Source: an uncultured Planctomycetales bacterium
GTDB taxonomy: Bacteria; Omnitrophota; Gorgyraeia; Zapsychrales; JANLHA01
Assembly (NCBI GenBank): GCA_964374105.1
Contig: CAYJXI010000001.1
Coordinates: 71,743-135,742 of the forward strand
Length of the DNA: 64,000 bases
Reading direction: 5' to 3'
Shown here: positions 12,001 to 33,000 of the stretch, piece by piece
Position numbering within the stretch: the stretch's first letter is position 1
Layout: every line of letters starts with the position of its first letter
The notes under the pieces: model-generated
What the model was told of the DNA's origin: nothing
Database searches by the model: none
The model's input: only the letters and a program-made list of their open reading frames with translations
Position numbers and translations under genes: made by a program

Positions 12001-15000
12001 TATTTGGCGAAGTTCCTTGCCGCCCTCAAGCGTAAGCCTCCTGCTGCAGAGGAACCGGTGGGGGTTTTGGAGATTATTATGGGTAAGATGTCGAATCGAG
12101 GTGAAAATGCCCTCGTCATAGAATATATCGATTTACAGAGAGGTTTAGATATCGATTATGCCGAATTTCTATCGGCTTTGATTGAGAAACTCAAAGAAAT
12201 GGCCCATACTAAGGAAGCCACCTTTATTTTGAAGCCGGTCATGGCCTGGTCCCTTTATGGCTTACCGGAAATCGGCGAGGTTTTAGCGCGCGCCCCATTG
12301 TTTAAATATGCACCGCTTCTTTATGAGGTTGTTTATCCTCGGGAGGTGGAAGAAATGATGCTGGATCTTCAGGCCGGCAATACAAAGGTGGCAGAAGATG
12401 TTCACAGACGACTATCAAACTTTTTGGATCAGCCTCGTCAAGTCACTTATGCGGATGATGAGGTCTTAAGAAGATATCAAGAAGGATTGCAGGCCCTGGC
12501 CAAGACTGGGGTTGCCGATCCTCATTGGCCTAAACTCTTGCGTTATCGGTTCAATGCCCTCTCGCGGAATCGCTTTAAAGTCCTTCACCGAGATGTCCCA
12601 GAAGGTGTCAAACGCAACCTCGCCCCCTACCGAGAAAGACTTGAAGCCATCAAGCCTTTCTTAATCGATGAACATGAACGGGACATCGCCCTTTCCATGG
12701 AACGCTATCTTGAGGTGGGCTTAAAGCCGTTATTTGTCCATAAGATCTTTTTGGGAAGAATAGAAACCCGCCTGGAATTCGCACAGAATCCAAATTATGT
12801 ACCGGTTGATTGGCAAGTGCAGTTCTTTGATCGAAGAAGCACATTTGCCTCCTGGAACTTAAACGAAAAGTATGCTTATCAGGCCTTGGAGTTTTATCAT
12901 ATCAAATTGGAAATGAGTGATGAAGAAATCATACCTAAATATCCGCAAGGTTTCTTTAAGGCAGAGGCGGGTTTCATTCGCGGTTCTGCTATCATGAAAT
13001 ATGTTATTGAAACGAAATTGGGGATCATAGATCTAACCAAACTCAATCGCAATCTTTTCTATGAACACGAGATCCATATTCCTTGGGAGCGGGTGTTTGA
13101 GAGAGATATCTTTAAACTGGCGGAAGTGATCTATCCGGGTCAATATGAATTGGATGACAAAGGGAGATTGTCTCCTCGGGCTTTGACCGTAGATGAAATC
13201 ATCCGGTGGATCAATGGCAAATTGAAGCTTGTTCCTGGGCGAGTCTTGGCGGGACAATTTGAATTTGATGAAAATGTCTCAAAGATCATCCTCGAAAGTC
13301 AAAAGTGGGGATCTCAATTCTTAAATATTCCTAAGAAACATATCGAAAAAATTGAACTAGCAGGGATAGAAAAAGTTGTGATCGCCACCTTTGAAGATAT
13401 GAATCTTGGACTTCTGTTGGGGGTATTCCTTAAAGAAGATTGGGAGGAATTTCAAAAAGGTAACAACCGTTTAATGCCATTGAGTGTCTATGCTTATTCA
13501 CAGAAATTCGAGAAAGCTCTTCTTGTTAAACCCTTTATCTTTGATCTTTATAAATTGCAGCAAGGACAGAAAATTCAGGCAAGGTCTGAAGGTCATCCAT
13601 GGAGTTATCGCAGGGCAAAGATTTATTTAAGACCATCGACAACTGTTCTTTCAGACAAGGTCCATGCAAGGTTAGAATTTTACTCCTATGATTTTGGAAT
13701 TCGAGCGAGCTTGAATTTTGCCCTTGATCAAAAAGACGTGGATCGTCTGGTCTTAAAGAATGAGGGGCTAGTTTATGTTGCCATTCTTAACGATCAAAAT
13801 CATGGACCCATGGTTATGGTTTTAAGACAGGAAGACTTTAATCCTACCACCGCGAAAATTTTAAACAAACCCCTTGCGACATTCGTATATCTGGGTGAGG
13901 AGGATGGGAAATTCATGGAAGTGGATTTGGCCCTCTTGGATATCTTGGCCTTTGCACAAGGGAGAAAGGATCTCACGGATTTGAAGCGAGGTCTTACCGA
14001 GACTGTTACCGTAGAAGAGTCAGGCCAAGGATCCTTAAACTTAAATTTAAATGCCGGCAAATCTTTTGATAAGAAAGCGAACTTCGATTTTACTAAAGAA
14101 GAAGTTGATAATTTTGATTTGGCTCATCAACCGGTGATTCTCGAATTGAAATATGATATGGATTACGGCTCTTATATATCCATTTCCACTGAAACGAATG
14201 AACAAAGAAGTCTTTTGGGGACATACTTAAAGGTAGAGCATCGTTTAAAGAAAATTGTTCGGGTGAATTTCAACCGCGAGTCCCTGATTGATTATGTTCA
14301 CGGACGAAGGAATATCCGGGGAGAAGAAATAGAGCCTCGAATTTATGTGTATCGAAGAAAGATTGCGAAAGAAGGCGTCATTCAATTGAGAAGTCTTTAC
14401 AATTATGTAATTCGCATCCATGGACTGGAAAACTTAGAAGGCAAATCGGTTGTCTTTCTCCCAGAATACAATCTTCAGTATCGTTGGATATTTAAGGCCC
14501 ATGACCTTGAGGATTACGAAAGGGAACGTAAGAAATATGGAGAGATCAGAAGAAAACCAGATGTGATTCTCGTGAGAGACATGAATCGAAAGGCCCTTAT
14601 CCCCTTAACGGAATATCAGACCAGGATTATTACCGAAGAACAAAGGGAACGCTTCCGGCAGATGATCGAAGAGATGGGCTTAGAGAGGTTTTTAAGAAGT
14701 CAGGGAGGGCGCATTGACCCATCCCTTTATCGATATATCTTGGCCAAATACCCAGGTGAATTTGATTTAACCAAGATCATTATTCTTATCCAAGAATGGT
14801 TGCATCGGTTACCGAAATTAAAGAAACCTAAAGAGGAGGAGGGTCCAGGGGTTGATGTTATTCCGCCAGGGCCGACAAAACCGCCGGCCGGACCCAGGAA
14901 ACCTAAAGTCAAACCTGAAGAGAAAGAAGAGACCGCAGCAGAACACATTCGACAGGCCATTTTGGCTAAGTCCATTATGATCCGAAAGGACGCCTATCGT

Positions 15001-18000
15001 TCTTTGACTAAGGATGAAGTGGGGGCCTTGCAGAAACTTCTTAAGGAAGCCAAAAATAATCCTGATCCCGAGGACCAGGAGGCCTACCGCATTGTTTACG
15101 AATATTATGAGAAGATTTTACGCCAGCCTTTCCCAGGGATTAGACGAATGATTGAAACCGATAAGGGATCAATTCGCTTTGAACTTTATCAGATGGAAGG
15201 CGCTTTCTTTTTAGCCGATCGTCTCTATGCCATTTTGGCAGATGATCCAGGATTAGGAAAAACCGCCCAAGCCATAGCCGCGATTCTTTCAATTCTTCGA
15301 AAACGAACCGATCATCCCAATATTGCCCTGATTGTTGTTCCTGGATCTGCTAAAGAGGTCTGGAAAAATGAAATCAATAAATGGACAATTGGGGTTCATG
15401 ATATCCTGATCATTGATGATAGAGGTGGACGTGGGCGACTTTACCGTAAAGGAGAAAAGGTTCAGACAACGAATCTTAAAGATTGGTTTGAGTTATTTGA
15501 GAAATCGCCGCCGCAGGAAGTGCCGTTTGTCATTGTGACATATGATCGTCTGAAAGGAAACTTTAAACCGCTGTGGAGATATTTAAAGAAGATCACACCC
15601 CTATCCACACCGGAGATTGATCAGTTTAAGATGGAATATCAACGTTATGATAAACAATGGTCACAGGATAAGCTCTATACCACCCTCCTTGACTTAATCC
15701 CCGAAGAACAAAGAGATGAGTTTCAAAAAGAACTTTACATCAAGGTCAACCGGGCCTTTGGTACCTTTGAATCCATCAGAAACTTAAAGGCCGATGTTAT
15801 TATCTTGGATGAGGCCCACCGCTTACGAAATGATGAATCCATTCAATCAAAAGCTCTGCAGGATCTAGGGGATGAGGCCCGTAAGATCCTTGTTACGGCA
15901 ACCCCGCTGGTAGGACGACGGCCGGAACGAATCTGGCCGCTCCTCCATTGGCTTGATCCAAACAAATACAATTCGCTTGAGAAGTTTATGACCGAATTTC
16001 CTAATAACGTAAAGGGTAAATGGGACCTTTATCTCCATCTGCAAGACGTCTTGATCAGAAGAAAGAAATCCGAGGTTTTGGAGGGTGTTCTTCCTCCGAT
16101 CACACCTCTTGAACACCAGGTCAATTTTGATGACGATGAAGATGCCTTTACCTATTTACGGTTGGAGGAAGAGTTTGGCGAATGGTTAGAAGAAGTCAGA
16201 CATTTAACCGGAACATATCCCGGTGCCAATCATGTCTTTACTAGGCTATTAACTTTAGTTAGGTTTACTTCCGGATTACGTTTTGTTGACGGGCAGTGGA
16301 AATTAAAAGAGAATGCTCCAAAACTCAGAGAGTTGGATCAACTGATCGATTCGATCCGCAGTCAAGGAGAAAAGGTTGTTATCTTCACCAGATTTGTTGA
16401 AATCGCCAAGACCTTAAGGAAACGATTCAGCGAACGGTTTGGCGAAGAATCGGTGAGTTTCATGGATGGCAGCGTTCCTCAGAAGAAGCGAGATCAGGAA
16501 ATCAAACAATTCCAAAACAATCCGCAGCGCCGATTCTTCGTTGCCACCTATGGGACCGGAGGAGAGGCGATCACCTTAACTGCCGCCAATCATGTCATCC
16601 TCTATGATTTAGAGTGGGCTGAACCCGAACAACCGATCAATAGGGTTCATCGTCTCGGTCAAACCAAAAATGTTTATGTCCATTATCTTATAATGATCGA
16701 CACGATCGATCAATATATCCTTCAACTCCATTATGCCAAACGAACCACCTTCGAACAGGTATTGGAAGGGTGGCTGCCTCCGGAAGAATTCGAAGAAGAT
16801 ATTGCCGCGATGATCATTGAACATTACCGGTCTAGTGGTGAGGCATCCGAGGAAGGAGCACCCGGTGTGGGTGCTCCCTTTGCTATGTTGCCCAAATGGC
16901 GAAGGTGGTATAACCGTTTAGTCAAATTCAAACTCGGCTGGGTGATTACCCTTTTGGCAGCTCCGATTTGGGAAGAATACAAGCGCCGTAAGTACGGCAT
17001 CACCTTTGAGGAATTTGCCGAGATGCACGATATCATTTATTTGAAGAAAGAACGGCGCTGGGTGTCGGCAATGTATGAGCATCTTGAGGCGATTCGCCTC
17101 ATGGCCTTGCAGACCGATGGGATTTATCTTAAAGCAGCCCAGTCCGGCCGCTGGGTCGGTTTACTTGCCGCTATCTGGGAGCATATGAAGTATAACTTCA
17201 GTGTCTACCGCGGCCTCAACGATGTCTTTGCCATGGCCCAAGAAAAGAAGGAAGATCCAGATGAAAAGATGAAAGAAAAAATTAAGATGATTCTGATGGA
17301 GACCTTTAGAGGGAAGCAATTCGATCGGTTAAAATCGACCGTACAAAACAGGATCTTGGATGAATTAACTGAGAATTTATTCGCCTTCTTTAAGACCTAT
17401 ACCCCGGATGAGGAAGGAATGTACCGTGCAGCGTCTTATGTCTTGAAACCCAGGAAAGGCCCGGTGATGGGGATTGATTTAACCGAACAAAGTCGAGTGG
17501 CGGGTCAAGTCAGAAGAGAATTACGAAAAGTCATTAAGAGAAAGGAGATTGAGATTACTCCCACCCATGTTGATTTGATAACCAGAAAACTCCTGCATCT
17601 TTTTACCAAGCCGAGAAAAGAACTCAAGAAAGAACCTTCCCCGATTAATATAGAAGTTATTACCGCTGATAATTTAGCGGAAACACTTAAAGAGGTCTTG
17701 GGTCAATTAGAATCTGAAGAAGGGCCAGAGTTCAAGCAGGCCAAGGAAAAGCAGTCGAAGCTGGCGGATGAATTTTATAGATTACTGAAAGAGCATCCTG
17801 AAGAAATATCAGGATTCAAGGTCTTTGCGGAAGAGCTCCTTAGTGTTGAAAATCCCAAACCAGGAGTTAGAGAAGAGATCGAGGCCAGAATGAGATTTCT
17901 CTTGACCGACCTTGCTTCGGAATTCTTACGTTATTATCTATTTTCTTTCGGTAACGAAGATCAATTGGCGCGGGTCAGATATGCCATTGTCAAGATTTTT

Positions 18001-21000
18001 GAAAGGAAACCGCCTTTGGCTTTCATGTACATCAATAGCAAAGGTTCTAGGCTCTCGGATGAGAATAAGCAAGAACTTGAGGAAGTGTTTAGCGGGCTGG
18101 CTGAACTTCTTAATCGTGCCGAAAAAGGAGATGCAATTGCAGTCCCGCTCGTTATGATTTTAGCCAGATTCGTTGCTTACACGGATGCTTTAAGTCTTAG
18201 TCCTCAGCCGATTTTTTATCTTAATGTGTCAGAGGAGATCAGGGAAACGCGACGAAATCCCTTTGTTGTACTTATGGCGGGAGTCACAAGTCTTGCGTTT
18301 TTATCTTCCTTGGCGCAAAGAAAATCTAAACAACTCGGCCGCGACCTGATTATTGTTGATCGCTCGATGTTTGTTGTCGAGTATCTTAAGACTGTGGTCG
18401 AAGAATTGGGCCTGAAACGGGTTAAGGTCATCCGTGCCGAAGTCGCAGATCTGAAAAAATATCCAGAATTCCAAAAGGGAAAGATCGGGGTGATCCGAAT
18501 TAAAGAACCATTGATGAGAGGGGAAGATTACGAATGGTTTAAGACCTTGACGGATATGGTGACCCCGGGCGGGAAAATTATTATCTCAAAATTCCCAGAG
18601 ATTTCGATTAGATCCCCGGAATCTTTCGATATCGACTCGATTAGTTTGAGGAAACCTACCTTTATCTTTTTGGATGCTAATATCGTAGAAGGATTATATC
18701 TAGGGTTTGTTAAGGCAGAGGAACCCCGATGGATGCTAGAGAAATATGGATACTATGATAAGGATCATCAATTTGTAGAGAAGATGAGCGGATATTATGA
18801 TGAAGAAAAGCAAACCTATGTTGAGACTTTCTTTATCTTTACCAAGCTCACCAGAAAGGCAGAAAAGAAACAAGAGCTGAGAGAGGCGCCTCCAGCGCTG
18901 GCAGTTCAAACAGCTGAGACAACTGTTCCCCAAGGGGTTGAGGAAATCCCGGCTGTTCCTACCAAGAAAGAGTCTTACGAGTTATTACAAGAAGAGAAGC
19001 AAAAGCTAGCCGAAGATATTGAAGAGATATTGAGTCAATTGATCAAGGAATATGAATCCATCCGAGATTTAACGATCATAAGAGATTTAGGTAGGAAGGA
19101 AGGTGTTGTTTGGGTGGAATTATTAACACAGTCCTTATTTAGCTTTTATCAAGATCAACGCAATATTCGTCTGGCGATTGAACGATTGATCCGAAATAAT
19201 CCTTGGCTTAAGAGTTCCTTGGAAGATACCCAAGTAATAAAAATCTTTGAAGCCCTTATTGGATTGATCCAAAAATTACAGGATAAACCCAAAGTCAATC
19301 CTTCGACTTCGTTTAGAATTGGCCCTGAGCCCCATCTCGGCGGGGTCGAATGGGTCAAAGAATTATTGGAAAAATCAGCCCGGTATTCTGCGATTGATAA
19401 AGCCTGGGAATTAAAACAATCCGGTGTAATTCCCTATGTTGTTCCGATAAGAGAATCAGTCCACACTAAGGGATATCCTTATGTTGAATTCTTGACGAAT
19501 TTAAAAGATTTCCAGGGTCTGTCCTCCCTAAAAGAAGTTGAGCGAGAGGTGATCTTCCTTGTAGATTCTCTCTTTACCGCCGCCTTCCTCAATAAAGCCA
19601 GTGAGGTTCTGGGAATATCCAATGCCAAAGCCCTTGAGGTTAAGCAAAATCTCCTTCAGTCGGAGGAGTTAAGCCAGGGGATTGGGACATTGCACTTAAA
19701 CAATCTAGATCAATTGCAGTTCATTGATCAATATCAGGAATTGGGGGAAGATTGGTATCGAAATCTCATTGAACGGGTTGTGGAAGGGGGAGAGGTCCTA
19801 TTCAGTGAACCGGTCACTCAAGAGAAATCGAGGGACATAACCTCTGGGGATATTCAAAAGAAACTTAACCCATCCATTCCCACCCCCAATGACAAAATAT
19901 TTATTGAGCTTTCTCAGAGAAGCCAAGAAAAATCCGAATGGAATTTAGAAGTCGGGTATATCAATCTTAAGGGTAAATTCATGCGCAATAAAACCGGATA
20001 TGTCATGCGAGGCTCAACGCGAATGGATACGGTCTACATCTTTGTACGGACTCTGACTCAGGAAGCAAAAGTTGCTAAAGCCAAAACCAAGATGATCACT
20101 GTAAAACTCTCCAATCGATTAAAAATATTTAATAATAATGAGGCCGTTTTAAGGGTGGGGGGGCAGACTATCAGAGATGTTACAGGAAATTTTCCCAACG
20201 AATTACTTAAGAAGATTATTGCAAATAATCAGCTTTCCGATCGCATTTTGATCTATATCAATGATACGAGGAAGGTAAGGCCAACCGAGATGAATTCAAT
20301 TCTTCAAGATCAGGATCAGTTGGTCATCATTTTATTACCGTCTGCAGATAAGAAGAAGGAAGCGGTAGAGAAATTTGAAAACCGGCCTTGGCTTCCTTTC
20401 ACGATCCAATTCTCAAAGAACTTTTTAAGGGATGTCAAACGAAGCGGGAAATTGATTGATCCCCGATTCTGGAAGTGGCTCTATAGTTTCTTAGAATTTT
20501 ATCAACAATTTTATCAAGAACCCAGAGACAAAGCCGAGAAGCATTTCTTAAGGGCCCTCAAAGGCAAAGGTACTAAGGCTGATACCCGCGTCTATCCACA
20601 TGTGTGGCATGACGATAATTATCGGCTTTACTTTGACTTCTTGTTTAAGGTAGAGAATAAGATCAGTGTCATCGATGGAATCAGGCTCTTTGCCTTCCGG
20701 CTTAAAGACTTCAGCGAAGACAATCCGGTATTTTACAAGGCCTTGGAGAGCTATTCAGCCGACAGTGAAGTCATAACCAGGATCATTGATGTCGAGAATC
20801 TGCTTAACCGGCTTTATAACAATAAGAATATTCAGTTGATTGCTGACTTAAGTCAGGAAATGAATTTGGCGAGTTTAGAGCAGGAGTTCTTCACCCCCGT
20901 TAAGAAGGCTTCCTCCTTAAATGATTTATCTGCGGCCTTTGATCAACTGATTATCGAACGCACCAGCGACTATGATGTCCCCACCTTCCAAGGAGCAACG

Positions 21001-24000
21001 ACCAAGGCCGGTTTGATTGAGATGTTGGCGGAGTTAAGTCTTGATTTATTCTTGGAAGAACCGGGACTCAAAGACCAGGCCCTTTATGATTCTTCCTCCC
21101 ATATTCTTTATGAACGAATTGGCAATAACGATCCTCGTAAAGAGACAAATATTCGCCGAGTGATCGCCTCCTGGTTGTATGCAAAGGGGCGCATCATCGA
21201 GTTGATCAAGACTCAGTTTACTTTAGCCAATCTGGATATGGTAGGTTTAGGCCGGGTGATTGGTCAGTATGGATTCATCTTAAGTATCGAAGAGGTCAAA
21301 GAGGTAGCGAGCCGCGGAATCATAGAGTGGTTAAGATCCTTTGTGGGGATGGATAGTCTAGGAGATTTGCAAGAATGGGCTACCTACATCAAGGAGGAAT
21401 TAAGAACCGGATTGGTTGAGGTCATTGAGCATGCCTTGGATAATGTTGCTTTGGCGGCGGCCAACGAAGAGTTGCTAGCCAAGGCAAATTCCGAAAGCCT
21501 CTTCTTTAAAAATTTTATTATCTTAGAACTTTTGAGTATAGCTTCCTACCTTGAAAGACAAGCAGTACATGTGGCTCCGGGGGTCGAAGAATTATCACGA
21601 TTAGTGAAAACAATCCTCCTGGGAGAAGCAAGTCTTAAGGCGTGGGCAAAAGAAAGACTTATAGGCGTGGATAAGGCATTTTACAGCTTTATTAGAAGAT
21701 TATTAGAATTGTTAGTTTCCGTGAATCCCAATTGGCAGGAAGTGATTGACCTTCAATTGTTGTTCGAAGAAGAGAAAAAAGATCAAGATCGCGAAGGCAC
21801 CCCACCTAGCCCAGAACCCCCGGCCCTGATGGCAAAATGGAAGGAAAAATTACAACTCGCTATCAGGGAAGAAAGACTCGTAAGGTTCCTTGAAGAAGTT
21901 GCTCTGATTGAGGAAACCGAAAGGACAGTGCACTACACCCGCGCCCCACCTAGGGAATTTGTGAAAGCTCATGAGGAAGTTTATGATATTAAAGAAAACA
22001 TCTGGCGTAAACCAACCTCAGAAGAACTCCAAGCCCTCCGTCAATTGGCCCGCTTAACCGATCGTGCTTACTATTCCACATATGTGAAGGGTCGGGGAGT
22101 TTCTCCCCGACCCTTCATCCCGAGGAACGAAGTGACGAGGGATCTCATGAGATCCCTCAGCCCTTTGGGCTTCGGGATGACCAGTCGGGGAATAAAGCAA
22201 AAAACTCCCCGACTGGTCACATATGTAGATGTCTTATTGCAATCAATCCATGATTATCAAAAGGCCCGCTTGGCTGGGATTAAGGCAGCCGCTTTAATTC
22301 ATCATGAATACAACCTAAGAGTCCTTAAAGAAGGTGGGATCTTGGCTGCGATAGCAAATAGCGGATGGGAATCTTTATTTACCAATCTCGAAGGCAAGCC
22401 ACTCAAAGTTTTAGATAAGGATCGTAAAGAGGGGATGCAATCTTCGATTGAGGTCCATCGATTCAGATTAGAAAAATTGATTCGGAATGCCGACCTACTG
22501 AAAGAGAAAGAAGAACCCAAAGCTTATTATATGAGGGATATCCCGGGATTTGATTTTGTCTTCTATGCCCTGGAAGGCGATTTGATCATCCTTGAATTAA
22601 GGGAAGGACAGAAGGCTGCCATTTATTCTTCTGACCACTGGGATTGCCAGTCCTGTTCATTTACCGCAGAAACACAAGAGGGGAAAACTGTGATCGGCCA
22701 TGCTCATATCGTTCAGATGTCCCAGGAGGGTCATGATCAATATGAACAGTACCGGGCCCTTCTTAGGTTCCTTAAAGCTCAAGAAAATGGATTTAGGAAT
22801 ATAAGGATGTTTTCTGCTATGGATAATCGTTCGATTGAGGATGGGAAAGAACATTTTCTGTCACGACTTTTTAAGATCAGTGGATTCCCCAAGGGAATGA
22901 CAATACCACAATTAGAGAAGGAAATTCAACAGGAGGGAATAACAGTCCTTCCAACATTTATCCGTCAGGGATTAGAAGCCTCTCTCAGAGGAAAGGAATC
23001 AGAGACGGATACGCTTCTGACACCAGAAAGTGTTTATGTCAAAACCACATTTGAAGATTCCGAAGAAGAAGGCGAGGTCTTCAGGATGGATTGGGAAGGA
23101 TCCACAAGTGAGAGGGAAGAGTTCTATTTCAGTGACCTTAAACTCAAAGATAAACAGCAAGGGACTTCTCCCCATCAGGCCCTAACGTCCGCTATGTTAC
23201 CCAATTGGCACCGGGTACATACATTAATGTCCTTGGTTGGTTTGGATTGGATTGTTGAAGAATATTTTGCTCCACTGATTGAAGAGTTTAAGAAGTTGTA
23301 TTCTGGCATGTCAGCTGATGAATTCGCCTTATTGCATAAGAAGGTTTATGTCCCGAGGGAAAGACAATGGAGACAACCAACTTTAAGAGAGCTTAAACAA
23401 CTCGAAGATGTTGCTTTTGATGCTGACCGGGCATTCTCCGAGAATTATTTAAGTATTCTCAACCGTTTGACGCCGGTTACGATGGGAATGGCGGTTAAGA
23501 ACGGTCGATTGATTTCCGTTGCATTAAGAACGACCCGTCCGTTTGTGGAGGTATTGATAAAGTCAATCGCTTGGATTGTTGGCTGGTGGGCGGCCTTTAA
23601 GATTCATCGGGAGCACAATCGCCAAGTGGCTAGGGGCATCAAAGAGGGAGTCCTCGCCATGGCCGAAGGGATCAATGATATTGAGGATCTTAAGAAACGA
23701 ATTGAAGAGAAGATTAAAGACAAGAAACTCGAAGGGATAAGTAGCAAAGAACTGACCGAAGACCGACTGAAAGCCCTCAGTCAAGCTAAAACACTTGCGC
23801 AAAAAGATCTTCCTGGTAAAGTGCAGAGTATTTTCAAGAATCAACAGCTTGGGCCCACTGCTAAATTGACTACTAAACAAGCTGCTCCCATTGCCCAGGT
23901 CTTGATTGAATTGAAAATGATGGCCGAAAAGGCCAAACAGGCCAAGCAGGCATTACTCGTTGATCCTTTGAGTCCTTCTTTTGAACCTTTACGTTGGACT

Positions 24001-27000
24001 CAAGAGGTCTATTTCAAGGCCGTTAAGGAAATCGATCCGCCTTTCATTGCCGGAACGTTGAAGGGAAGAGAGATGACCGCATGGCTTAAGAAACTCTTTG
24101 ATCCCTTTGGCGTAGATTTGGGAATCGAAAATATCTTAAAGCCGGATGAGTTCGTAACCCCAGAATATAATAATGATATTCAGCGAATCTTAAGACTCAA
24201 GGCCTTTATTCCGAAGAATTTCATTATTGAGCAATCACCTTTTGCCCCGAATGAAGTCATTGTTGCTGAAATCATCCCACAATTGACTGAATATGTATCT
24301 TCCGATGGATCAGGGGTGAATCGGCAGATTCCGGTTTATACCATTCGTGTCCATCAAGGAAGAATGGAAGCTGGAATCGGCAGCAGGGATTATATCTTAT
24401 TAGGTGAAGATCAAAAAATTGATCTGGATCATGTCAAAAATGGTCAAGAATTTCGACGAAAATATCAACGAAGACAGTTCCCGCCCTTCAATGTATTAAG
24501 TCTTGAATTTATGACAACTTGGATTCTTGCTCATTCCTTAGGAGAAGATGATGTACCGGCAGGTTTAAAGAAGCTTCGCTTAGAGACGATTGTGGAGGAA
24601 ATCGGTCATTCCGACTCTCAATATTTCGCTGAGGAACGTCTAGGGTATTGGATCAGAAGAATTCATCCGCAAGAAGTCGTTGAATTGATGAGACTCCTCG
24701 TGAGGCCCGGCCAGGAGATTGCTAATATCTTGAATAAACAATATCCTGATCCCATTGACCTTTATTTGAGGGCAGAGGCCTTTGAAGAGTTTGAAGCCAA
24801 GTTAAGGGCAATGATTCTCTCCCCCTCACCTTCCTATACGGCTATTGAGTTTTTGACCGGAGGTCTGTATACACAACTTATCTCCTCATTTGGAGAACAA
24901 CCCCATTACCTCATTGCTTATGCACTTCTTTTGGCATCTTTCGCTAAAGAATTCATGGGTCGTGAGACAGTGAAACCCCAGGATTGGATTCCTTATTTAT
25001 CTGTTCAGTTGTTTGGAAATACAACGGGTCGAGTCTCGGATCTTCCTGATTGGGAAGGTGCCAGTGAGTTGATACAAAGATTTGATGCACTCTTAAGGCA
25101 GAAAGCCAAGGTGATTTATGATCGGGACTTCTTTACCAAAGAAGAACGCTTAAGGTTGTTAAGTTCCTCCCCAGCGGATCCTAAGCAAAACGAAGAACTA
25201 TCAACAAATCCCGCTGATCAAGCAAAGGATCATCATACAAAGGATGGCGGATATACCGATATGGATCGCAAAGAGGCCTTGAAACAACTTAAGCTTTATC
25301 AGAGCTTGGGGGCCATCCGGTCATTGAATGACTCCAGGGTGAAACATGCGCTTAAAGAGGCTTACCATTATGTCAAAGATACCCTCAAGGTCAATTTGAA
25401 ACGCGGTCCTCCCTCGATTTTTGTTATTAAAACAGACAAGATCACTTTTGGTGCTATCTATATAGAAAAAGACAATGAACTCTTCATCGAACGACCCCTC
25501 CTTAAAGAGAAACTCCGTGTCAAAGAATATCAAATCGCCCTGACCCGTGTCTTTGTGCACGAGCTTAATAACAAGACCCACCGCGAAAATGTTGAAGTTG
25601 AAACTTGGTATGAGATGGATAAACGATCCTCTGTTTTAGAAGAACATCTAATGAGGATCTTCAAAGTAGACTTCGAGGAAATGGCTCACTATGAAATCCT
25701 GGGAAGAACATGGCGATTTATTGTAACAAAATCCTTTGTCAGAATTGGGCGGTTCTTCTTTATCACTCATGATGATTACAAATCGCTAGGCAGAGAGATC
25801 AAGCAAAATTATTCCGATTTGTTAATTCAATATCATTTTGTCAGATCTCAAGGGAAAGTGTTGTCTGTCGGTTACCATCCCCACACCATGATAGCGATCA
25901 TGGCCTTACAATCTTTGGCTGGGATTATCAAAGGTCATACCATTCTCGATGGCGGGACCGGGGAAAATGCGGTATTAGCGATTGTGGCCTCGCGATTAGG
26001 GGCTCAAGAGGTGATAGCGGTAGATAATATTGATATCAATCTTGCGGGGGCCCAAGAGAATATTCGTCGTAATGGTATTAAAAATATCCGAGTCGTTCAT
26101 TCAGATTTATCAAAGGTTAAAGAAGAAGATTTTGAACTCATTGACATTGTCATGACGAATTTTCCTTGGGCCGGGAAAGTGGAGACCGAAGATGTTGAAT
26201 TCAATATAAATGATCTCTTGATGTCTCAATTGATAAACGCTAAACACTTCCTGTTTTTCGGTCTCCGTGATGATGTGTATGCGAAAGAACTGAAAGAAGA
26301 AATCCGCCGTTACCATCTGCCTCCAGGTTTAGAGAAAACTAGTGAAATTCGATTACCTGATCTCAAAGAGGGGCTACCGGATTACCTTGCCTTTATCGTT
26401 GAACGAGAAGTTTCACAACCCTTCCAAGCCCCGATGCGCCGGGATCATCCGCGTTATAAAGGATTTATCAGTTATCAGAGCATCATCACTCTCATTGATT
26501 ATTTAAAGAAGAATGGCCGGGCTCTCAAAGTCCTCGATTCCGACACAACCCTTCTGGCCGATCGAGAAATCCTCAAGGCCATCAGTTCTTTAGACTATCT
26601 TAAAGATTTGTTGAATCAGGCTCGTTCAGTTTTAGATCATTTGGATCGTAACTATGTCAATTCTTTAAAAGAAGTCCTTAGCGGGGTGCAAATTGCGGTT
26701 GGTTTATTGGATGGATCTGATTATCTTGTTGAGGTCTATAAAGGCGATGAGGAATACCTGGCCTTGATTGGGATTAACCGCTCCTTTGTTGAGGCCTTGC
26801 GGGATGGCTGGATTTTGCCTTTGACATTTGAAATCGCCTTGGCCGTATCTATCTTCCATGAATTGGGCCATCTTGTTAATGAAGAAGAGACAGAAGAAGA
26901 TCGAACGATCCGAGATCTGCTGTTGACCTTTGAATTATTTGAGATACGTTTGGCTGAGCAAAAGGCACGTGTCCACGCCATGAATGCTTATGTTGGCGAG

Positions 27001-30000
27001 CTTTCTGGCTTGGTAGAAAAAGAAGGATATCTTGACATTTATATTGAAGAATTGAAAAGAGCTAATATTTATCTCTACGACAGTTCTCTTGTCTCGGCAG
27101 GGTTTAGTTCCAGCATAAAACAGAAAGGGCTTAAACAGATTGAGAAACTTTGGGAAGGAAGGGTCGTGGAGATTGTTAAATACTTAAGATCGAACAGCCA
27201 GCAGTTTGGCAAAACCGCTTCCCAGAATTTTATCCGAGGATATTTAGGTGCCTACCGATATATTGAGAAACGTTATCCGGAATTTTATCACTTAGAAAAG
27301 TGGATCCGACTTGTCAAAGGGAACCGAAACCTCGTTGAATGGAGAATGTACAAGAGTCGGGTGATACTGACGATCGATGCGACTTTATTACAAACCCGAC
27401 CACTTTTGGAATTGGAAGTGGCTGAGGTCTTGCGTAAGGTAGCCAGCCGTGCGGTGTATGGCAAAGAATTTATCCCGGTCGTTGAGGCCATTGAAGAAGT
27501 TGAAACGGATCTTGAAAAGGTTGATTACTTCCGCAATATGCCGATTGAGGATCAAGCCGAGGTCTTGAGTGTACTTATGAATAAACGCAATGCCATGGAT
27601 ATTGCTGGGTTCCATGAAGTCTTAATCCGCAGCTATGTCCGTTCATCGGTGGATAAGCAAAAATTAGATTCGATTATCGATCTGTTAAGACAAAATTACC
27701 ACCATGTCATCAAGGAAGATCAGATTAGAAAATTATTGATCCTTATGACTCAACCTCAGGATGCCATTGAGGAGATTTATCAATACGGAAAGAAAGCAGG
27801 GGTTTACCGTGAATCCATTCATAGAGAATACGTTGTTGGGTTTGCACAAGAATTACGAAATCTTGGGTTTGGCGGTGTTGAGCGCCTGCCAGAGGAAATC
27901 GGGAATCTCCGGCACGCGATTATCCTGATGGTTAATTGGCTTAAACCAAGAGTCTTGACCAGAATGCAAGATCATAACCTTGCCCCCTTGCTTGTAGCTA
28001 TCAATGGAACTGCGGCCAGCGGCAAAACCTTTTTCAGTAAGGAAATCAAACGCAAACTCCTCGCTCAAGGGTTAGGTTTGCGGGAAGAAGATATTGAGAT
28101 TATTGAATTGGACGATTTCCTCTTACCCAAAGAGCAAAGAAAATCCGGAGATGTTTTAGATGCCTATGAACTGAGGAGATTTTACGAAACGATAAGATCT
28201 CTAGCCAGAGGCAAGTCTGTGTCAATCCCGCAATTCGATCAAGGGACTCGCAAGAGAAAGACAACCCCCGATGGGAAGGAATTGTTGCACGTTATTCCAT
28301 CGGGCAAGAAGGTTGTTATTGTGGAAGGGATTCTTATCTTATTGAACCGAGCCGTGAATAGGCGTTTCGATCTAAAAGTTTTCTTAGATGCTGATCCCGA
28401 TGAAAGGGTTCGCCGAGAACTTTATCGCAAATGGAATGAAGGCCGTTACGCCACGATCACCGATTGGGCTATGGCCGAACGTGCCCTGCAGAAGGAGCTC
28501 AACGAAAATCAACCTTATATTTACACCCTTAAAGAAGAGGCGGACATTTATGTCTTAAACAATGAATTGTGGTTCCACAAGGGTATTCAGAATGAGCCAG
28601 AAAAACTTGTAAAGGATCTTGAGGAATTGGTTCAAGAATTCAAATCATACATAGAACGCAGCAATGGCCGGGTGGTTTGGAGGGATTGGGAATTTATTCA
28701 AGGTATCGGTGTATACGAATTCAATGAGAGTATCGCCACACCTCTCTTACAACAATTGGTTTATAATCCAAACAAAGAGGTCAGAAGAGCCATTTACCTA
28801 TTTCTCTTGGATTATTACCGAAGAGATAGACTAGAGGAAGTTGGAACGATTATAACAAAGATCTTCCCCGAGGCCATCAGTATTATTGCTCAAGATGTGG
28901 TCAATGACTACAAGGCCCATATGGAAGAATCTGTTGTTAAAGCCCCCATTTTAGTGGGGGTGTCTGGGTTCTCCTATAGCGGGTATCTGACCTTTGCCTT
29001 AGGACTTAAGGACGAATTGGTTAAAAAGCATAAATTCAGTCCCGAAGCAATCGCTATTATGGAGCAGAAGGATTTTACTATTTCTAAGGGTGAACGCAAG
29101 CGAGGCAGTGTCCTTTATAAATTCAGATTACATGAATTCATTCGAGCAGCCCTTAGCCTCCTTTCCCGTAAGAGCAAACTTGTTTACAGGCCGTTTGATC
29201 TTAATAAGGGAAGACTAATTCCCAAGGCTTGGACTCGGTCAAGGATTACGATTGATCCCTATAAAGTCAAAATTGTGATTGTGGTGGGGAACTTGGCCCT
29301 TCACGATGAACGCTTAAGAAAGAATTATGTGGCGCGTGTTTACGTTGAGGCACCTCGCTATGAACGGTTAAGAAGAATTCTTCTGATGCATCAAAAGGGA
29401 GAGATTTACAGTTATATCAAAGATCCTCGGGACATGATCACCAAATTCAAGGCCTGGGAGAGGACCGAGGAATTGGATTATATTGTTAAACAAAAGGTTT
29501 ATGCCGAGCTTATTGCCGATAATACCGAAGGGGGCTTAAAAGAAGATCAAGTGAAAGGACCTTTTAGGTTTAAAGACACCAATGAGCTTGTTGCTTATTT
29601 ACAAGAGATCAAATTACCTCTTCGAGTTTATCGAAATGAACAAGGCGGGGTAACCGAGATTGAAATTGTGGGGGTCACCCCTGTCTTAGAAGAGGCTTCG
29701 GCTCGAATTCTCATTGAAGAATTGATGAATAATCCCAACGCTGATATTTGGAAGCACATTACCTCGGTCTTTGATCAAGTGGATGTCCGACCCCACAAGA
29801 AAGGAGCTAAACGCACCCCGCCCCAGGATGCATCCGCAAAAGGTAAGAGCCATAAGCAGATTATTAGAGAAGTCAACGAGCAAGGTGGGATTAAGGCGAT
29901 TATCCGGAATTTCGGCGGAGAAATCAGCCGTAGTGAAGTGATGAGGACTTATGGGATCAGCCCAAAGATGATTGATCGACTGGCCGAAAATGTTCGATTC

Positions 30001-33000
30001 ATCCGCGGCCCGCCTGAGATTGGAGTTGCCAATTATCTGGATGTTGAAGAAGGTATTATTTACATTCTTATCCCACCCGATCCCTCCCGTCAGAATGTCC
30101 GCCACGAAATCCGCGCGGTTAGCTATAGATGGATGCCGCACTTTGTGAATGTCATTTTGGATAAAATCCCAAGTTATTCCCACAAATGGATCAATGAGCT
30201 TAAGCTCATATACTTTAGTTTAAGGTTGGGTGTTTCACCAACGAGGTTAAAGAGAGCGGAAATCCTTGCTCTACAGCTTGCCGATCGTGCTGCCGAAAAA
30301 ATGCAGGAGATTAAACAAAAGGCAAACTGGGTTGATGGGGTGATGGTGCAGGCTGAGTTAAAAGCCGATGGAAGCTTTGTGACCCCTGCCGATGTTGAGA
30401 TTCAAAATAAAATTGTTTTACCCAGTATTCTCAGAGAATTCCCAACCCATTATGTCTTAGGAGAGGAAGAGATCTTCGATCAAAAATTGAAAACTCAAAA
30501 TGACGCCAATGCCAAATCCGATTGGGTATGGGTGGTGGATCCGTTGGATGGGACCAAGGCTTATCGAGGCGGGCATAAAGGCTATGCCTTCTCGTTAGCT
30601 CTCCTTTATAGAGGAAGGCCAATGATTGCCGTGACCTATGCCCCGGAAATGGAACTGGGCAATGAAATGGGAATCAAGATGCAGGGAAGTCTCTGGGCTG
30701 GGGCAGTTGTAAACGGACGTAGATTGAAGATGAACCGGATTTTGGATCAATCCCCTGTATGGCAGGTGATCGCATTCTATTACGATGTGGAATTGAAACA
30801 TGATCGTTATCGATTTGGCTGGCAGAAACATTATGGAAAAGAAAATGTCTTAATCGAGACAGAAGAAACAAATGCCTCAGTTACCAACAGCATGAGAGTG
30901 CTGTTGGAAGAAGTAGCCATGTATTCTACCTCGGATGCCCATATCTGGGATTGGGCGGCGATTGGGGCGATTGCCCAGTGGGTGCAGGCAAGTGTCCATC
31001 GTTATGATGGAAGAAGTGCCTTCCCGATCAGGAAAGAAGAAATCGAAAAGGCCAAAGAAATTTTAGAACCATTTATCTTAACCCGCGGTGGTGAGCATGA
31101 AGAAACAGCCCTTAGAACTGTGCGTGAAGATCAAAATAAAGAATTGCGGGTAGCCGTGATCGGCGCCTCGGGATATTTGGGTAAGAAGATCTACTCGATC
31201 TTTAAGAATGAGAAGATGCAGGTTATCGGAACTTATCTTAATAAACCCAAGGAAGGATTGCTTCTCTTGGATGTCACTGAGGAAGAGGCCATTAAACGAT
31301 TTATCGAAACCCACAAGGTCAATGTCATCATCTATGCGGCTGGTGAGGCCAGCCCAGAAAGAGCCGAAAAAGATCCTGCCCGCGCGGAAACTTTAAATGC
31401 GGGAGTGATTGATACTTTCGCGAAACATTTCCACGGCCACTTTATCTATGTCTCAAGTGATTATGTCTTTGATGGAACAAAACCGCCTTACCTTGCCAAT
31501 GCAAAGCGCAGTCCGTTGAACGCTTACGGCCGATCCAAGATGCACGGCGAACAAAAGGTGTTAGAAGAACACATCGATCAATTTGAGAAAGTAACCGTGG
31601 TGCGCTTAGGGGTGCTTTACGGTTTCAATGACCAGGACGACAAGAAACATTATGTTAAAGAAATTGTAGAAAAATTGGATCAAGGAGAAACACTTATCAA
31701 GACGGATCACCGGCAAGTCAGGCATCCAACCTTCCTCGATGATGTGGCCTTGCACTTATTGGATGTGGTTAAGACCGGCCGCACGGGGATGACTCACGTC
31801 AACGGCCTAGAGGATACAACCAAGTACCAGTGGACTCAAGTCATTGCCGAAGTTTACCAAGAAACATTTGGCCCGATTCCAGGTCTTAAGATTGAACCTG
31901 TGGAAACGGTTGATGTCACCACCAAACCCAAAGACGCCAAACTTGTATCCCTGACTTCGATTAAGATCACATCACTTAAAGAAGGCATTCGAAAGATTAT
32001 CCGTCAATTATCGAATCGACAGACCAAGAAGGAAGATAGACAATCACAATCGCCTCAGAACCCCATGACAGCGTCCCGAATCGATTTATCTGATTTCGTC
32101 AGACAATTGGAGCACCTACTAAAACATTTTAAGGTTGACTTCAAGGAAAAGATCAAGATCGATACGATTGTTCTGGACCTTGACCGAACTGCCACCGAGC
32201 ATCCACAGGTGGAACTCAAAGGCTTAAATCTTGAAGAGATTATCCGAGCCCTTCTGGCTGACAAAAGGGTGATTATTATCAGCGGCAGTGCTTATCATAA
32301 AAAATATCAGACTCGTTACGGAGAATTTGACTATACCAAGAATTCTATTCAGCGCAAGGTGACGGATGTACTCAAGCGCGATCCGCGTATTCAAAAAAAT
32401 ATCCATAAGTTAAAGAATCTGATCATCAAATATATTTCTGGTAAGGGAACCATTACCTTCAACAAGGAAGGGGAAGAAATTGATCAGGTGAATCAGGAGT
32501 ATATCATCTCTGAAGATATTGAGAAGGCTATGGCCAAAGCGTTAGTAGGGGCGTTCTATGCAGTTTATAAGGGATATCAATTTGAGGAATTCTTAAAAGA
32601 CTCTTTGTATGAGCAGATTCAATCGTTTGACAAGAATGACTCAAAGTACATAGCTAAATTAGAAGAACTGGCTAAGACCTCAACGGGATTGGAGGGTATC
32701 CATTTCGGGCTCTGGGGAAGCGAGACAGTCTTGGATTATGCCGATAATCGTTCACCGGATGGGACGCTAGTGATTGAATTTGCGGTAAGGTTGTTAGCCA
32801 GAGACATCGGTGAGGAAAATGTAAGAGGGAAATACTTCCTCTCTGGCGGTGGGAATTATGCCAAGTTTGCCTTAATTGATAAAAAAGATGTGATTGCCAA
32901 CGAACTTAAAAGTATTGATTCTGCCGGTGTCGTCCTTGCCTTGGGTGATTCGAGTGTCGATACCTTCCTGTTTCTTAAGCCAACAGAATATCTCTATGTG

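What the first reader, a model, noticed from the sequence alone, without database searches (positions are those of the whole stretch)
22078..22226. In-frame 149-bp GC-rich palindromic MITE-like element inside the ORF
A locally GC-rich segment with 22-nt terminal inverted repeats (19/22), three consecutive stable hairpins including a 22-nt perfect palindrome, and an atat/atat flank that looks like a target-site duplication. It adds about 50 R/G/P-rich codons without a stop or frameshift. It resembles REP, Correia or MITE-type elements that are tolerated inside coding regions, or it could be a structured RNA element embedded in the mRNA.
Basis: seen in the sequence. Interest (0 to 1): 0.6.

Follow-up and report, generated by a model that had tools for sequence, protein, structure and literature searches.

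The report
Mobile palindromic repeat inside giant gene
A 135-base mobile palindromic repeat (a MITE-like element, otherwise found between genes, mainly in Omnitrophota genomes) has landed inside a giant gene of more than 21,000 codons without breaking the reading frame, adding 47 amino acids; this phenomenon is known from Rickettsia and Coxiella and is seen here in a new lineage with an apparently undescribed repeat family.

Summary
Window 22085-22219 is a 135-bp element made of three perfect hairpins. It is flanked by a perfect 6-bp direct repeat, CATATG. Its RNA fold is -102.5 kcal/mol (z = -13). Element plus one repeat copy is 141 nt, or 47 codons, read through in frame inside an ORF that fills the whole 64-kb window.

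The MITE-like interpretation is supported and made sharper.
- Related elements occur in public genomes and metagenomes. They share the TG...CA termini (TGAGGGGTCGGGGAGTTT), terminal hairpins and a GGATCTC...GAGATCC core.
The closest copy is 84% identical.
- About half of the complete copies carry perfect 6-bp duplications centred on TA.
- All 22 other complete copies examined appear intergenic.
- Two distant homologues of the giant protein align on both sides of the site and lack the 47 residues. The segment is therefore an insertion, not ancestral protein.

Three things are unresolved: the mobilising transposase (no autonomous partner found), the copy number in the source genome (source not found), and whether the insert is translated, tolerated or has an RNA-level effect.

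The kind is known: in-frame MITE or RPE-type insertion. The family and the host gene are new examples. Interest is moderate.

The parts
1..63999 (+). Host gene. One uninterrupted reading frame (frame 1, 21,333 codons) that runs off both ends of the window. It is a multi-enzyme giant protein carrying SNF2/Helicase_C, a PrmA-like methyltransferase, PRK, inositol monophosphatase, RmlD/epimerase, transketolase, a nucleotidyltransferase, pseudouridine synthase and ChaN domains.
   Evidence: Stop-free stretch. Pfam hits.
22079..22084 (.). Left copy of the 6-bp target-site duplication, CATATG.
   Evidence: Direct repeat. Boundary set by family comparison.
22085..22219 (.). The element proper: 135 bp with TG...CA termini, 84% identical to metagenome copy L121.
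22085..22117 (.). Left terminal hairpin. The outer arm plus T-run, TGAAGGGTCGGGGAGTTT (22085-22102), is the left terminal inverted repeat. The inner arm is CTCCCCGACCCTTCA.
   Evidence: Inverted repeat I3, 15/15. Covarying stem across the family (helices 1-2).
22118..22177 (.). Central palindromic module. An outer stem TCCCGAGG.../...CTTCGGGA encloses the perfect 22-nt palindrome GAGGGATCTCATGAGATCCCTC (22137-22158, two GATC sites) and the mini-hairpin GCCCTTTGGGC.
   Evidence: The module is shared with L121, L132, L137, L043, L138 and others.
22178..22219 (.). Right terminal hairpin. The inner arm is TGACCAGTCGGGGA. The outer arm, AAAAAACTCCCCGACTGGTCA (22199-22219), is the right terminal inverted repeat.
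   Evidence: Inverted repeat I4, 14/14. Five stem positions with compensatory changes across the family (helix 5).
22220..22225 (.). Right copy of the 6-bp target-site duplication, CATATG.
22084..22224 (+). The 47 extra codons as translated: VKGRGVSPRPFIPRNEVTRDLMRSLSPLGFGMTSRGIKQKTPRLVTY. They are absent from homologues P0005 and P0014.

Best explanation
This is a non-autonomous DNA transposon of the MITE type. It belongs to a modular palindromic repeat family found mostly in Omnitrophota genomes in the genome scan made here.

**Family layout.** The ends are 5'-TGAGGGGTCGGGGAGTTT...AAACTCCCCGACCCCTCA-3'. Each end is followed by its own complement, which forms a terminal hairpin. A palindromic core built around GGATCTC...GAGATCC sits in the middle.

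**The insertion event.**
- *Inferred:* a transposase supplied in trans made a 6-bp staggered cut at a TA-centred site, CATATG. That site lay across the codons ACA-TAT-GTA (Thr-Tyr-Val) of the giant gene. Gap repair then duplicated the six bases.
- *Shown:* 135 + 6 = 141 nt is a multiple of three, and the frame hit is one of four stop-free frames out of six. The reading frame therefore continues for at least 13,900 more codons.
- *Inferred:* the element is translated as a 47-residue Arg/Gly/Pro-rich insertion between two conserved helical segments. The copy persists because it does not destroy the protein. It need not have any function of its own.

**Transposase.** Its type is not identified. 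The TG...CA ends and the 6-bp TA-centred duplication resemble IS481/IS3-type DDE elements.
For: 1. **Anatomy.** Terminal inverted repeats, three perfect hairpins and a perfect 6-bp flanking duplication.
2. **Family.** The terminus pattern found more than 119 genome loci.
   - 14 of them show the terminal-hairpin layout. Eleven of those 14 are from five Omnitrophota MAGs, often about 100-140 nt from contig ends, as expected for assembly-breaking repeats.
   - A subfamily pattern found 27 metagenome loci.
   - The closest copy, L121, is 84% identical over its full length.
3. **Transposition signature.** Perfect 6/6 flanking duplications occur in 11 of the 23 paired-end copies of 100-350 bp (one of them seen on two contigs), and 5/6 in two more. 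They are almost all centred on TA: ATTAAG, ACTAAG, ATTAAT, ATTAAC, GTTAGG, CTTAGT, CATAAT, AATAAG, ATTATT.
4. **Insertion, not ancestral sequence.** Homologues P0005 and P0014 conserve RAPPxEFVxAHxxVYD...WRK upstream and KAAxxxHxExN...GG downstream but lack the 47 residues. The W-to-N distance is 58 and 53 residues, against 57 in the window without the insert and 104 with it. The BLASTP gap opens right after the shared '..TY'.
5. **Other copies are intergenic.** For the 22 other complete copies, the best frame spanning each stays open for at most 55 codons beyond it on either side. L121 lies between two ORFs.
6. **Frame tolerance.** Four of the six frames of the 141 nt are stop-free.
7. **Precedents.** In-frame MITE and RPE insertions are documented (PMC10969869; PMC5896051). 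IS481-family elements have TG-initial inverted repeats and duplicate a 6-bp NCTAGN site (PMC2516522).
Against: - No autonomous element with these termini was found in about 1.07 Mb of fetched loci, so the mobilising enzyme is unknown.
- Copy number in the source genome could not be measured.
- No strain-level empty site was found. The homologues lacking the insert are distant (32-52% identity) and are not strict orthologues.
- The stems covary. That points to a structural constraint, which a simple sequence-specific DDE transposase model does not explain.
- About half of the complete copies lack a recognisable duplication.
Confidence: 0.85

Rival explanations
1. A REP, REPIN or BIME-type element. 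In this reading the hairpin units are recognised as single-stranded DNA structures and spread by a RAYT (IS200/IS605-like HUH) transposase. The 135-bp unit would be a mosaic of two inverted REP hairpins around a spacer.
For: - Solo terminal hairpins occur on their own (L022, L025, L028, L002/L040).
- The family is a mosaic: different cores sit between the same ends (L091/L112, L024/L047 and the MAG040 copies).
- The stems covary, so structure rather than sequence is conserved.
Against: - Perfect 6-bp target duplications flank about half of the complete copies. By established knowledge, HUH/RAYT-type single-strand transposition makes no duplication.
- The termini are TG...CA, not the REP-type GTAG head.
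- No RAYT gene could be looked for in the source genome.
Confidence: 0.07
2. A functional structured RNA embedded in the giant mRNA. Candidates are an RNase III processing site, a ribosome-pausing or co-translational folding signal, or an mRNA stabiliser. In this reading the element is kept for that role, not merely tolerated.
For: - The predicted structure is very stable (-102.5 kcal/mol, z = -13).
- All three hairpins are still perfect.
- 84.8% of cells are paired across 11 family members, against 40-60% when the partners are slid. Thirteen pairs show compensatory changes.
Against: - No Rfam family matches, even at E <= 1.
- The same element type lies in unrelated intergenic contexts.
- It carries the hallmarks of transposition.
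- Covariation is equally expected for DNA hairpins.
- It contains no terminator-like or promoter-like site.
- Perfect stems are also what a recent insertion would show.
Confidence: 0.05
3. Ancestral coding sequence that happens to be palindromic, or a low-complexity linker. No mobile element would be involved.
For: The segment is in frame and stop-free.
Against: - Two homologues lack it.
- An 84%-identical copy and dozens of related copies lie in non-coding DNA of other organisms.
- It has a perfect 6-bp flanking duplication.
- Its composition is an outlier for the window.
Confidence: 0.01
4. An assembly or sequencing artefact, in which a repeat was chimerically inserted into the contig.
For: In other assemblies, family members often sit at contig ends, so they do disturb assembly.
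Against: - The junctions carry a perfect 6-bp duplication of the kind seen in the family.
- The insertion preserves the frame exactly.
- A chimeric join would not create a target-site duplication.
Confidence: 0.02

Closest known systems
Rickettsia palindromic elements (RPEs; Ogata et al. 2000, as summarised in PMC10969869)
   Same: A palindromic repeat of about 100-150 bp is inserted in frame in a protein-coding gene. It is read through as an extra peptide segment that homologues lack.
   Different: - RPEs are found in ORFs at unusually high frequency. Here none of the 22 other complete copies lies in a long ORF.
- Only a third of copies have a length, with the duplication, divisible by three.
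- The lineage differs (the family is seen mainly in Omnitrophota here; the source itself is unidentified), and no sequence relationship was tested or is claimed.
- This family shows clear 6-bp target duplications.
Bacterial MITEs with intragenic in-frame copies (QMITE1/2 of Coxiella burnetii, PMC5896051; intragenic ERIC; Anabaena MITEs, PMC10969869)
   Same: Small, non-coding, with terminal inverted repeats and flanking direct repeats. They are multi-copy, mostly intergenic, and occasionally fused in frame to host ORFs, adding basic peptides.
   Different: - Different termini and a different duplication length.
- Each end here is its own hairpin, and the stems covary.
- The host gene is a giant ORF of more than 64 kb.
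IS481-family insertion sequences (for example ISLxc2, PMC2516522) as a candidate source of the transposase
   Same: Inverted repeats that begin with TG, and a 6-bp duplication of a site with a palindromic centre (NCTAGN there, NNTANN here).
   Different: - No IS481-like, or any other, transposase gene with these ends was found.
- The target core is TA rather than CTAG.
- By my own knowledge of IS family tables, IS1634, IS982 and IS21 also give 5-6-bp duplications.
Correia elements (CREE/NEMIS) of Neisseria and pneumococcal BOX elements
   Same: Repeats of about 100-160 bp with inverted ends that fold into long hairpins when transcribed. BOX elements have a modular build, and this family is a comparable mosaic.
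   Different: - By established knowledge, Correia elements duplicate TA only and carry IHF sites and promoters.
- BOX elements have no inverted-repeat or duplication signature.
- The Rfam search found no family here; whether Rfam holds models of Correia or BOX elements was not checked.
REP / REPIN / BIME elements
   Same: Short GC-rich hairpin units occur singly or as inverted pairs around a spacer. They have a mosaic organisation and structure-conserving substitutions.
   Different: This family has 6-bp target duplications and TG...CA ends. It has no GTAG head, and no RAYT association is known.

Membership tests
MITE (miniature inverted-repeat transposable element) | Small size with no capacity to encode a transposase | tested here: met
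   135 bp. It consists entirely of three hairpins.
MITE (miniature inverted-repeat transposable element) | Terminal inverted repeats | tested here: met
   Arms 22075-22102 and 22202-22229 are 86% complementary over 28 nt. The family consensus is TGAGGGGTCGGGGAGTTT at both ends.
MITE (miniature inverted-repeat transposable element) | Target-site duplication of fixed length flanking the copies | tested here: met
   CATATG is present on both sides of the window copy. Perfect 6-bp repeats that differ in sequence flank 11 of the 23 paired-end copies of 100-350 bp (one seen on two contigs), and two more match 5/6.
MITE (miniature inverted-repeat transposable element) | Multiple dispersed copies within one genome | tested here: inconclusive
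   Met in other genomes: Omnitrophota BS750m-G21 on 4 contigs, RIFCSPLOWO2_01_FULL_45_10b on 3, and NC_groundwater_1336 on 2. The source genome of this window was not found, and the window holds a single copy.
MITE (miniature inverted-repeat transposable element) | A cognate autonomous IS with the same inverted repeats | tested here: inconclusive
   No pair of termini 400-6000 bp apart with matching flanks that looks like an IS, and none 600-3500 bp apart at all, was found in about 1.07 Mb of loci. Whole genomes could not be scanned.
Rickettsia palindromic elements (RPE) | In-frame insertion in ORFs as the predominant location of family copies | tested here: not met
   This copy is in frame, but 0 of 22 other complete copies lie in a long ORF.
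Rickettsia palindromic elements (RPE) | Sequence similarity to an RPE family or a Rickettsia host | not tested
   No RPE sequences were available to compare. The related copies found here are from Omnitrophota, Sumerlaeota and Planctomycetota MAGs.
REP / REPIN (RAYT-mobilised) | No target-site duplication; insertion by single-strand HUH transposition | tested here: not met
   Perfect 6-bp duplications flank about half of the complete copies.
REP / REPIN (RAYT-mobilised) | Conserved GTAG-type head on the hairpin and an associated RAYT gene | tested here: inconclusive
   The termini read (G)TGAG..., not GTAG. Presence of a RAYT gene cannot be tested without the genome.
Correia element (Neisseria) | 26-nt inverted repeats with a TA duplication | tested here: not met
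   The duplication is 6 bp. The termini are unrelated to Correia termini by inspection. The Rfam search found no family at this locus; whether Rfam holds a Correia model was not checked.
IS481-family-derived element | TG-initial inverted repeats and a 6-bp duplication of a palindrome-centred target | tested here: met
   TG...CA ends and 6-bp NNTANN duplications. The defining features are taken from PMC2516522. This is a resemblance only.
IS481-family-derived element | Similarity of the inverted repeats to a known IS481-family member, or linkage to its DDE transposase | not testable with these tools
   No ISfinder-type library is available, and no transposase was found next to copies.
Curated structured RNA family (Rfam) | Match to a covariance model | tested here: not met
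   No match at E <= 1 in 21500-22800 on either strand.

The most novel reading that the evidence does not exclude
The insertion acts as a programmed translational bypass ('hop') element. The target-site duplication gives identical take-off and landing codons (ACA-TAT-G...ACA-TAT-G) on either side of a hairpin cluster of about -100 kcal/mol. Some ribosomes could skip the 141 nt and make the insert-free protein, as in T4 gene 60 or the GC-rich 'byp' insertions of Magnusiomyces mitochondria (recalled from my own knowledge, not checked in a paper). More broadly, giant genes of Omnitrophota might act as sinks in which such palindromic insertions are neutralised or recruited as linkers. Nothing here tests this reading. 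The in-frame, stop-free state makes bypass unnecessary.
Probability: 0.02. Interest if true: 0.85.

Novelty: new member of a known kind. Interest (0 to 1): 0.35.

Why it matters
- **A new host for a known phenomenon.** Selfish palindromic repeats becoming part of proteins, known from Rickettsia and Coxiella, also occurs in the largest bacterial genes known. The host here is probably an Omnitrophota-type giant protein.
- **A repeat family I could not find described.** It is modular and mobile, has structure-conserving hairpin ends, and spans several little-studied phyla. It breaks MAG assemblies at contig ends, which bears on the known fragmentation of giant genes.
- **Practical uses.** The family consensus can be used to mask or flag such insertions when annotating giant ORFs. 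The perfect duplication and intact stems mark a datable, probably recent event, useful for strain-level comparisons.
- **Limit.** It does not reveal a new mechanism.

Tried and rejected
1. **Rfam** search of 21500-22800 at E <= 1 gave nothing.
2. **Viral contigs.** Three patterns gave only one chance match, in a high-GC phage. The plasmid collection (blastn, distant mode) gave no match.
3. **Word-indexed protein search** of the flanks (21478-22828) gave no homologue. The exhaustive HMMER search was needed to find P0005 and P0014.
4. **Empty-site search in metagenomes**, using a codon-degenerate pattern for AYYSTYVDVLLQ, gave 0 hits.
5. **Peptide searches**, with the 47-residue insert and with a peptide from the commonest subfamily, shared no words with anything in the database. 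In-frame copies in other annotated proteins could therefore not be surveyed this way.
6. **Search for an autonomous partner** (paired termini 400-6000 bp apart) found nothing.
7. **AlphaFold2** single-sequence model of residues encoded by 21901-22420 had mean pLDDT 47.9, too poor to say whether the insert is a surface loop.
8. **Terminator and promoter scan** found nothing inside the element.
9. **A second terminus-like match** at 27157 is a chance 14/18 match with no hairpin.
10. **Readings considered and rejected.** A 4-bp ATAT or 5-bp CATAT duplication was rejected because the first and last bases of family members are not complementary but are directly repeated, so the duplication is 6 bp. 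IS200/IS605-type insertion was rejected because of the duplications. An intron or intein was rejected because the element is too small and has no matching structure.
Full report
**1. What is there**

The whole 64,000-base window is a single reading frame. Frame 1 is stop-free from 1 to 63999 (21,333 codons) and runs off both ends.

The ORF encodes a chain of unrelated enzyme domains:
- SNF2 and Helicase_C
- a PrmA-like methyltransferase
- phosphoribulokinase/uridine kinase (PRK)
- DUF2608
- inositol monophosphatase
- RmlD/epimerase
- a complete transketolase
- a Pol-beta-type nucleotidyltransferase
- pseudouridine synthase
- ChaN

This is the make-up reported for the giant 'Archaeovorin'-type proteins of Omnitrophota (bioRxiv 10.1101/2023.11.21.568195). 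Neither that paper nor a 2026 preprint on complete Omnitrophota genomes mentions palindromic repeats or MITEs inside giant genes.

**2.

- **Three perfect hairpins lie at 22085-22219**. They are 22085-22117 (15-nt arms), the 22-nt perfect palindrome at 22137-22158 nested in a longer imperfect stem, and 22178-22219 (14-nt arms).
- **The two ends are inverted repeats of each other**, 86% over 28 nt.
- **A 9-nt direct repeat** occurs at 22077 and 22218, spaced 141 nt.
- **The RNA fold** is -102.5 kcal/mol against -50.1 +/- 4 for shuffles (z = -13.1).
- **GC content** is 53.7% against a window mean of 43.5%.
- **The segment is translated in frame** as VKGRGVSPRPFIPRNEVTRDLMRSLSPLGFGMTSRGIKQKTPRLVTY.
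- **The window holds one copy only**. A weak second terminus match at 27157 is chance.
- **No Rfam family matches**.
- **The element contains no terminator-like or promoter-like site**.

**3. It belongs to a repeat family**

*Genome scan.* I scanned one genome per species for the shared end motif GTGANNNGTCGGGGAGTTT.
- Most are chance matches in GC-rich genomes.
- In 14 loci the motif is followed within 45 nt by its own complement, as in the window.
- Eleven of these 14 come from five Omnitrophota MAGs. The other three come from Sumerlaeota and Planctomycetia MAGs.
- Several matches sit about 100-140 nt from contig ends, as expected for repeats that break assemblies.

*Metagenome scan.* A scan for a core motif (TCAGCCCTTTGGGCTTCRGGATGA) gave 27 more loci.

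*Shared layout.* Complete copies follow one plan:
- a TG-initial end, TGAGGGGTCGGGGAGTTT;
- its complement, forming a hairpin;
- a core CATCCTGAG...GGATCTC...GAGATCC...CTCAGGATGA;
- a second hairpin ending ...AAACTCCCCGACCCCTCA.

*Closest copy.* L121 (Ga0114945_10013295) is 84% identical over 133 versus 135 nt. It lies between two ORFs.

*Mosaic build.* The same ends enclose quite different cores in other genomes (L091/L112, L024/L047 and the Thermodesulfobacteriota MAG040 copies). Solo end-hairpins also occur.

**4. It moves by transposition**

- I took the element as TG...CA and compared the six bases on either side. Eleven of the 23 paired-end copies of 100-350 bp have a perfect 6/6 direct repeat (one of these is the same locus seen on two contigs), and two more match 5/6. 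A second, partly overlapping set gave 7 of 15.
- The hexamers differ from copy to copy: ATTAAG, ACTAAG, ATTAAT, ATTAAC, GTTAGG, CTTAGT, CATAAT, AATAAG, ATTATT, GTTATT, CTTATT.
- Almost all have TA at positions 3-4.
- The first and last flanking bases are directly repeated, not complementary.
- The window copy fits exactly. CATATG sits at 22079-22084 and at 22220-22225, around a 135-bp element.

**5. It is an insertion into the gene, not ancestral protein**

- The word-indexed protein search found no homologue of the flanks.
- An exhaustive HMMER search of 1.84 billion representatives found 15 weak homologues. Two of them span the site:
  - P0005 (2,098 aa) fills an entire 6.3-kb contig of GCA_021735345.1 and is evidently a fragment of another giant gene.
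  - P0014 (565 aa) sits next to a 5,620-aa gene in GCA_018812705.1.
- Both conserve RAPPxEFVxAHxxVYD...WRK upstream and KAAxxxHxExN...GG downstream, and both lack the 47 residues.
- The distance from the conserved W to the conserved N is 58 residues in P0005 and 53 in P0014. In the window it is 57 without the insert and 104 with it. The BLASTP gap opens immediately after a shared '...TY'.
- These are distant homologues (32-52% identity), not strict orthologues.
- A codon-degenerate search for an exact empty site in metagenomes found nothing.

**6. Why the gene survives**

- 135 + 6 = 141 nt is 47 codons, and four of the six frames of the 141 nt are stop-free.
- The family as a whole is not built for this:
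  - Element plus duplication is divisible by three in only 5 of the 14 other subfamily copies checked.
  - Most copies have stops in most frames.
  - None of the 22 other complete copies lies in a long ORF.
- The simplest reading is survivorship. A giant ORF is a large target, and only an insertion that keeps the frame open is seen in an intact gene.
- The reconstructed pre-insertion sequence is ...TCC ACA TAT GTA GAT... (S-T-Y-V-D). After insertion the protein reads S-T-Y-[V...L-V-T-Y]-V-D.
- The perfect duplication and the three perfect stems suggest a recent event, or a constraint on the structure.

**7. What remains open**

- **The transposase.** No pair of termini 400-6000 bp apart that looks like an IS was found in about 1.07 Mb of loci.
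  - TG...CA ends with a 6-bp palindrome-centred duplication resemble IS481-family elements. One example has TGTG... inverted repeats and duplicates NCTAGN (PMC2516522). This is a lead, not a test.
- **The covarying stems.** Across 11 family members, 84.8% of cells pair, against 40-60% for slid controls. Thirteen pairs carry changes on both sides, concentrated in the variable part of the two terminal hairpins.
  - This points to a hairpin that matters as a structure, in DNA or RNA. It keeps alive a REP/RAYT-like rival and an RNA-function rival.
  - The duplications argue against the REP/RAYT rival. The diverse intergenic contexts argue against the RNA-function rival.
- **The protein structure.** The single-sequence AlphaFold model was too poor (mean pLDDT 47.9) to say where the 47 residues sit.

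**8. Comparison and verdict**

- It works like the known in-frame MITE and RPE insertions (PMC10969869; PMC5896051).
- It meets the structural definition of a MITE: small size, inverted repeats, a duplication, and multiple copies in other genomes.
- It is not an RPE, Correia or REP family member on the features tested.
- I could not find the family described. A full-text search for the core motif returned nothing, and the literature held here is incomplete.
- I rate it a new member of a known kind and of moderate interest. It is a well-supported case of a selfish palindromic repeat written into one of the largest bacterial genes, and a repeat family relevant to the assembly and annotation of Omnitrophota genomes.

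Noticed in passing
window 1-63999: The entire 64-kb window is one stop-free reading frame (21,333 codons) open at both ends. It fuses many unrelated enzyme domains: SNF2 helicase, methyltransferase, PRK, inositol monophosphatase, RmlD, transketolase, nucleotidyltransferase, pseudouridine synthase and ChaN. Cysteine makes up only about 0.1% of residues. GC skew is positive in every 2-kb bin.
   Followed up: partly
window 38892-38941: A perfect 19-nt-arm hairpin, CAGCAAGGGGACTGTCCCC-TCT-GGGGACAGTCCCCTTGCTG, is read through in frame. It is followed by a direct repeat, CCCTTGCTG|CCCTTGCTG, that could be a target duplication. This may be a second small palindromic insertion in the same ORF. Only one loosely similar sequence (a terminator-like AAAAGGGGACAGTCCCCTTTT in L120) was seen in the fetched loci.
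   Followed up: partly
window 53719-53780: Two adjacent hairpins sit inside the ORF. The first is GCGAAGGTGACAGTCACC-AAA-GGTGACAGTCACCTTCGC (18-nt arms, 94%). The second is CAATTTGCC-CGAT-GGCAAATTG. No copies were found in the fetched loci.
   Followed up: partly
window 56225-56298 and 7272-7308: Further inverted repeats lie inside the ORF. One has 14-nt perfect arms, GGCCGCTACGAACG/CGTTCGTAGCGGCC, 46 nt apart. The other has 18-nt arms at 83%.
   Followed up: no
window, whole: GATC occurs 452 times, against 365 +/- 18 in dinucleotide-preserving shuffles, none of which reached 452. The element's conserved core carries two GATC sites (22141, 22151). The cyanobacterial HIP1 octamer GCGATCGC occurs only once.
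   Followed up: partly
L091 5556-5685; L112 679-808; L130: The same terminal hairpin ends enclose a quite different core, GTCATTCC(C/T)GCGAA(G/A)GC(G/A)GGAATCCAG... The family is therefore a mosaic in which widespread palindromic modules are exchanged between identical ends.
   Followed up: partly
L122 ~4540-4650, L123, L134 (metagenome contigs Ga0208325_1000721, Ga0265592_1000240, Ga0268285_1000392): In these copies the left half of the element is replaced by tandem and inverted copies of a 19-nt unit, CTACCAACCTCGTAGGTTA. The unit abuts the conserved right half.
   Followed up: no
L149 1-4698 (JAHJCZ010000056.1, GCA_018812705.1): The homologue P0014 (565 aa, Lysine_decarbox domain) starts 64 nt inside the end of a 5,620-aa gene call. 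The two may be one giant gene split by a frameshift or by a gene-calling break.
   Followed up: no
L043, L057, L025, L074, L014, L049, L045, L027 (matches 88-141 nt from contig ends): The terminus motif repeatedly lies about 100-140 nt from the ends of MAG contigs. The repeat family therefore seems to be a frequent cause of assembly breaks in these genomes.
   Followed up: partly
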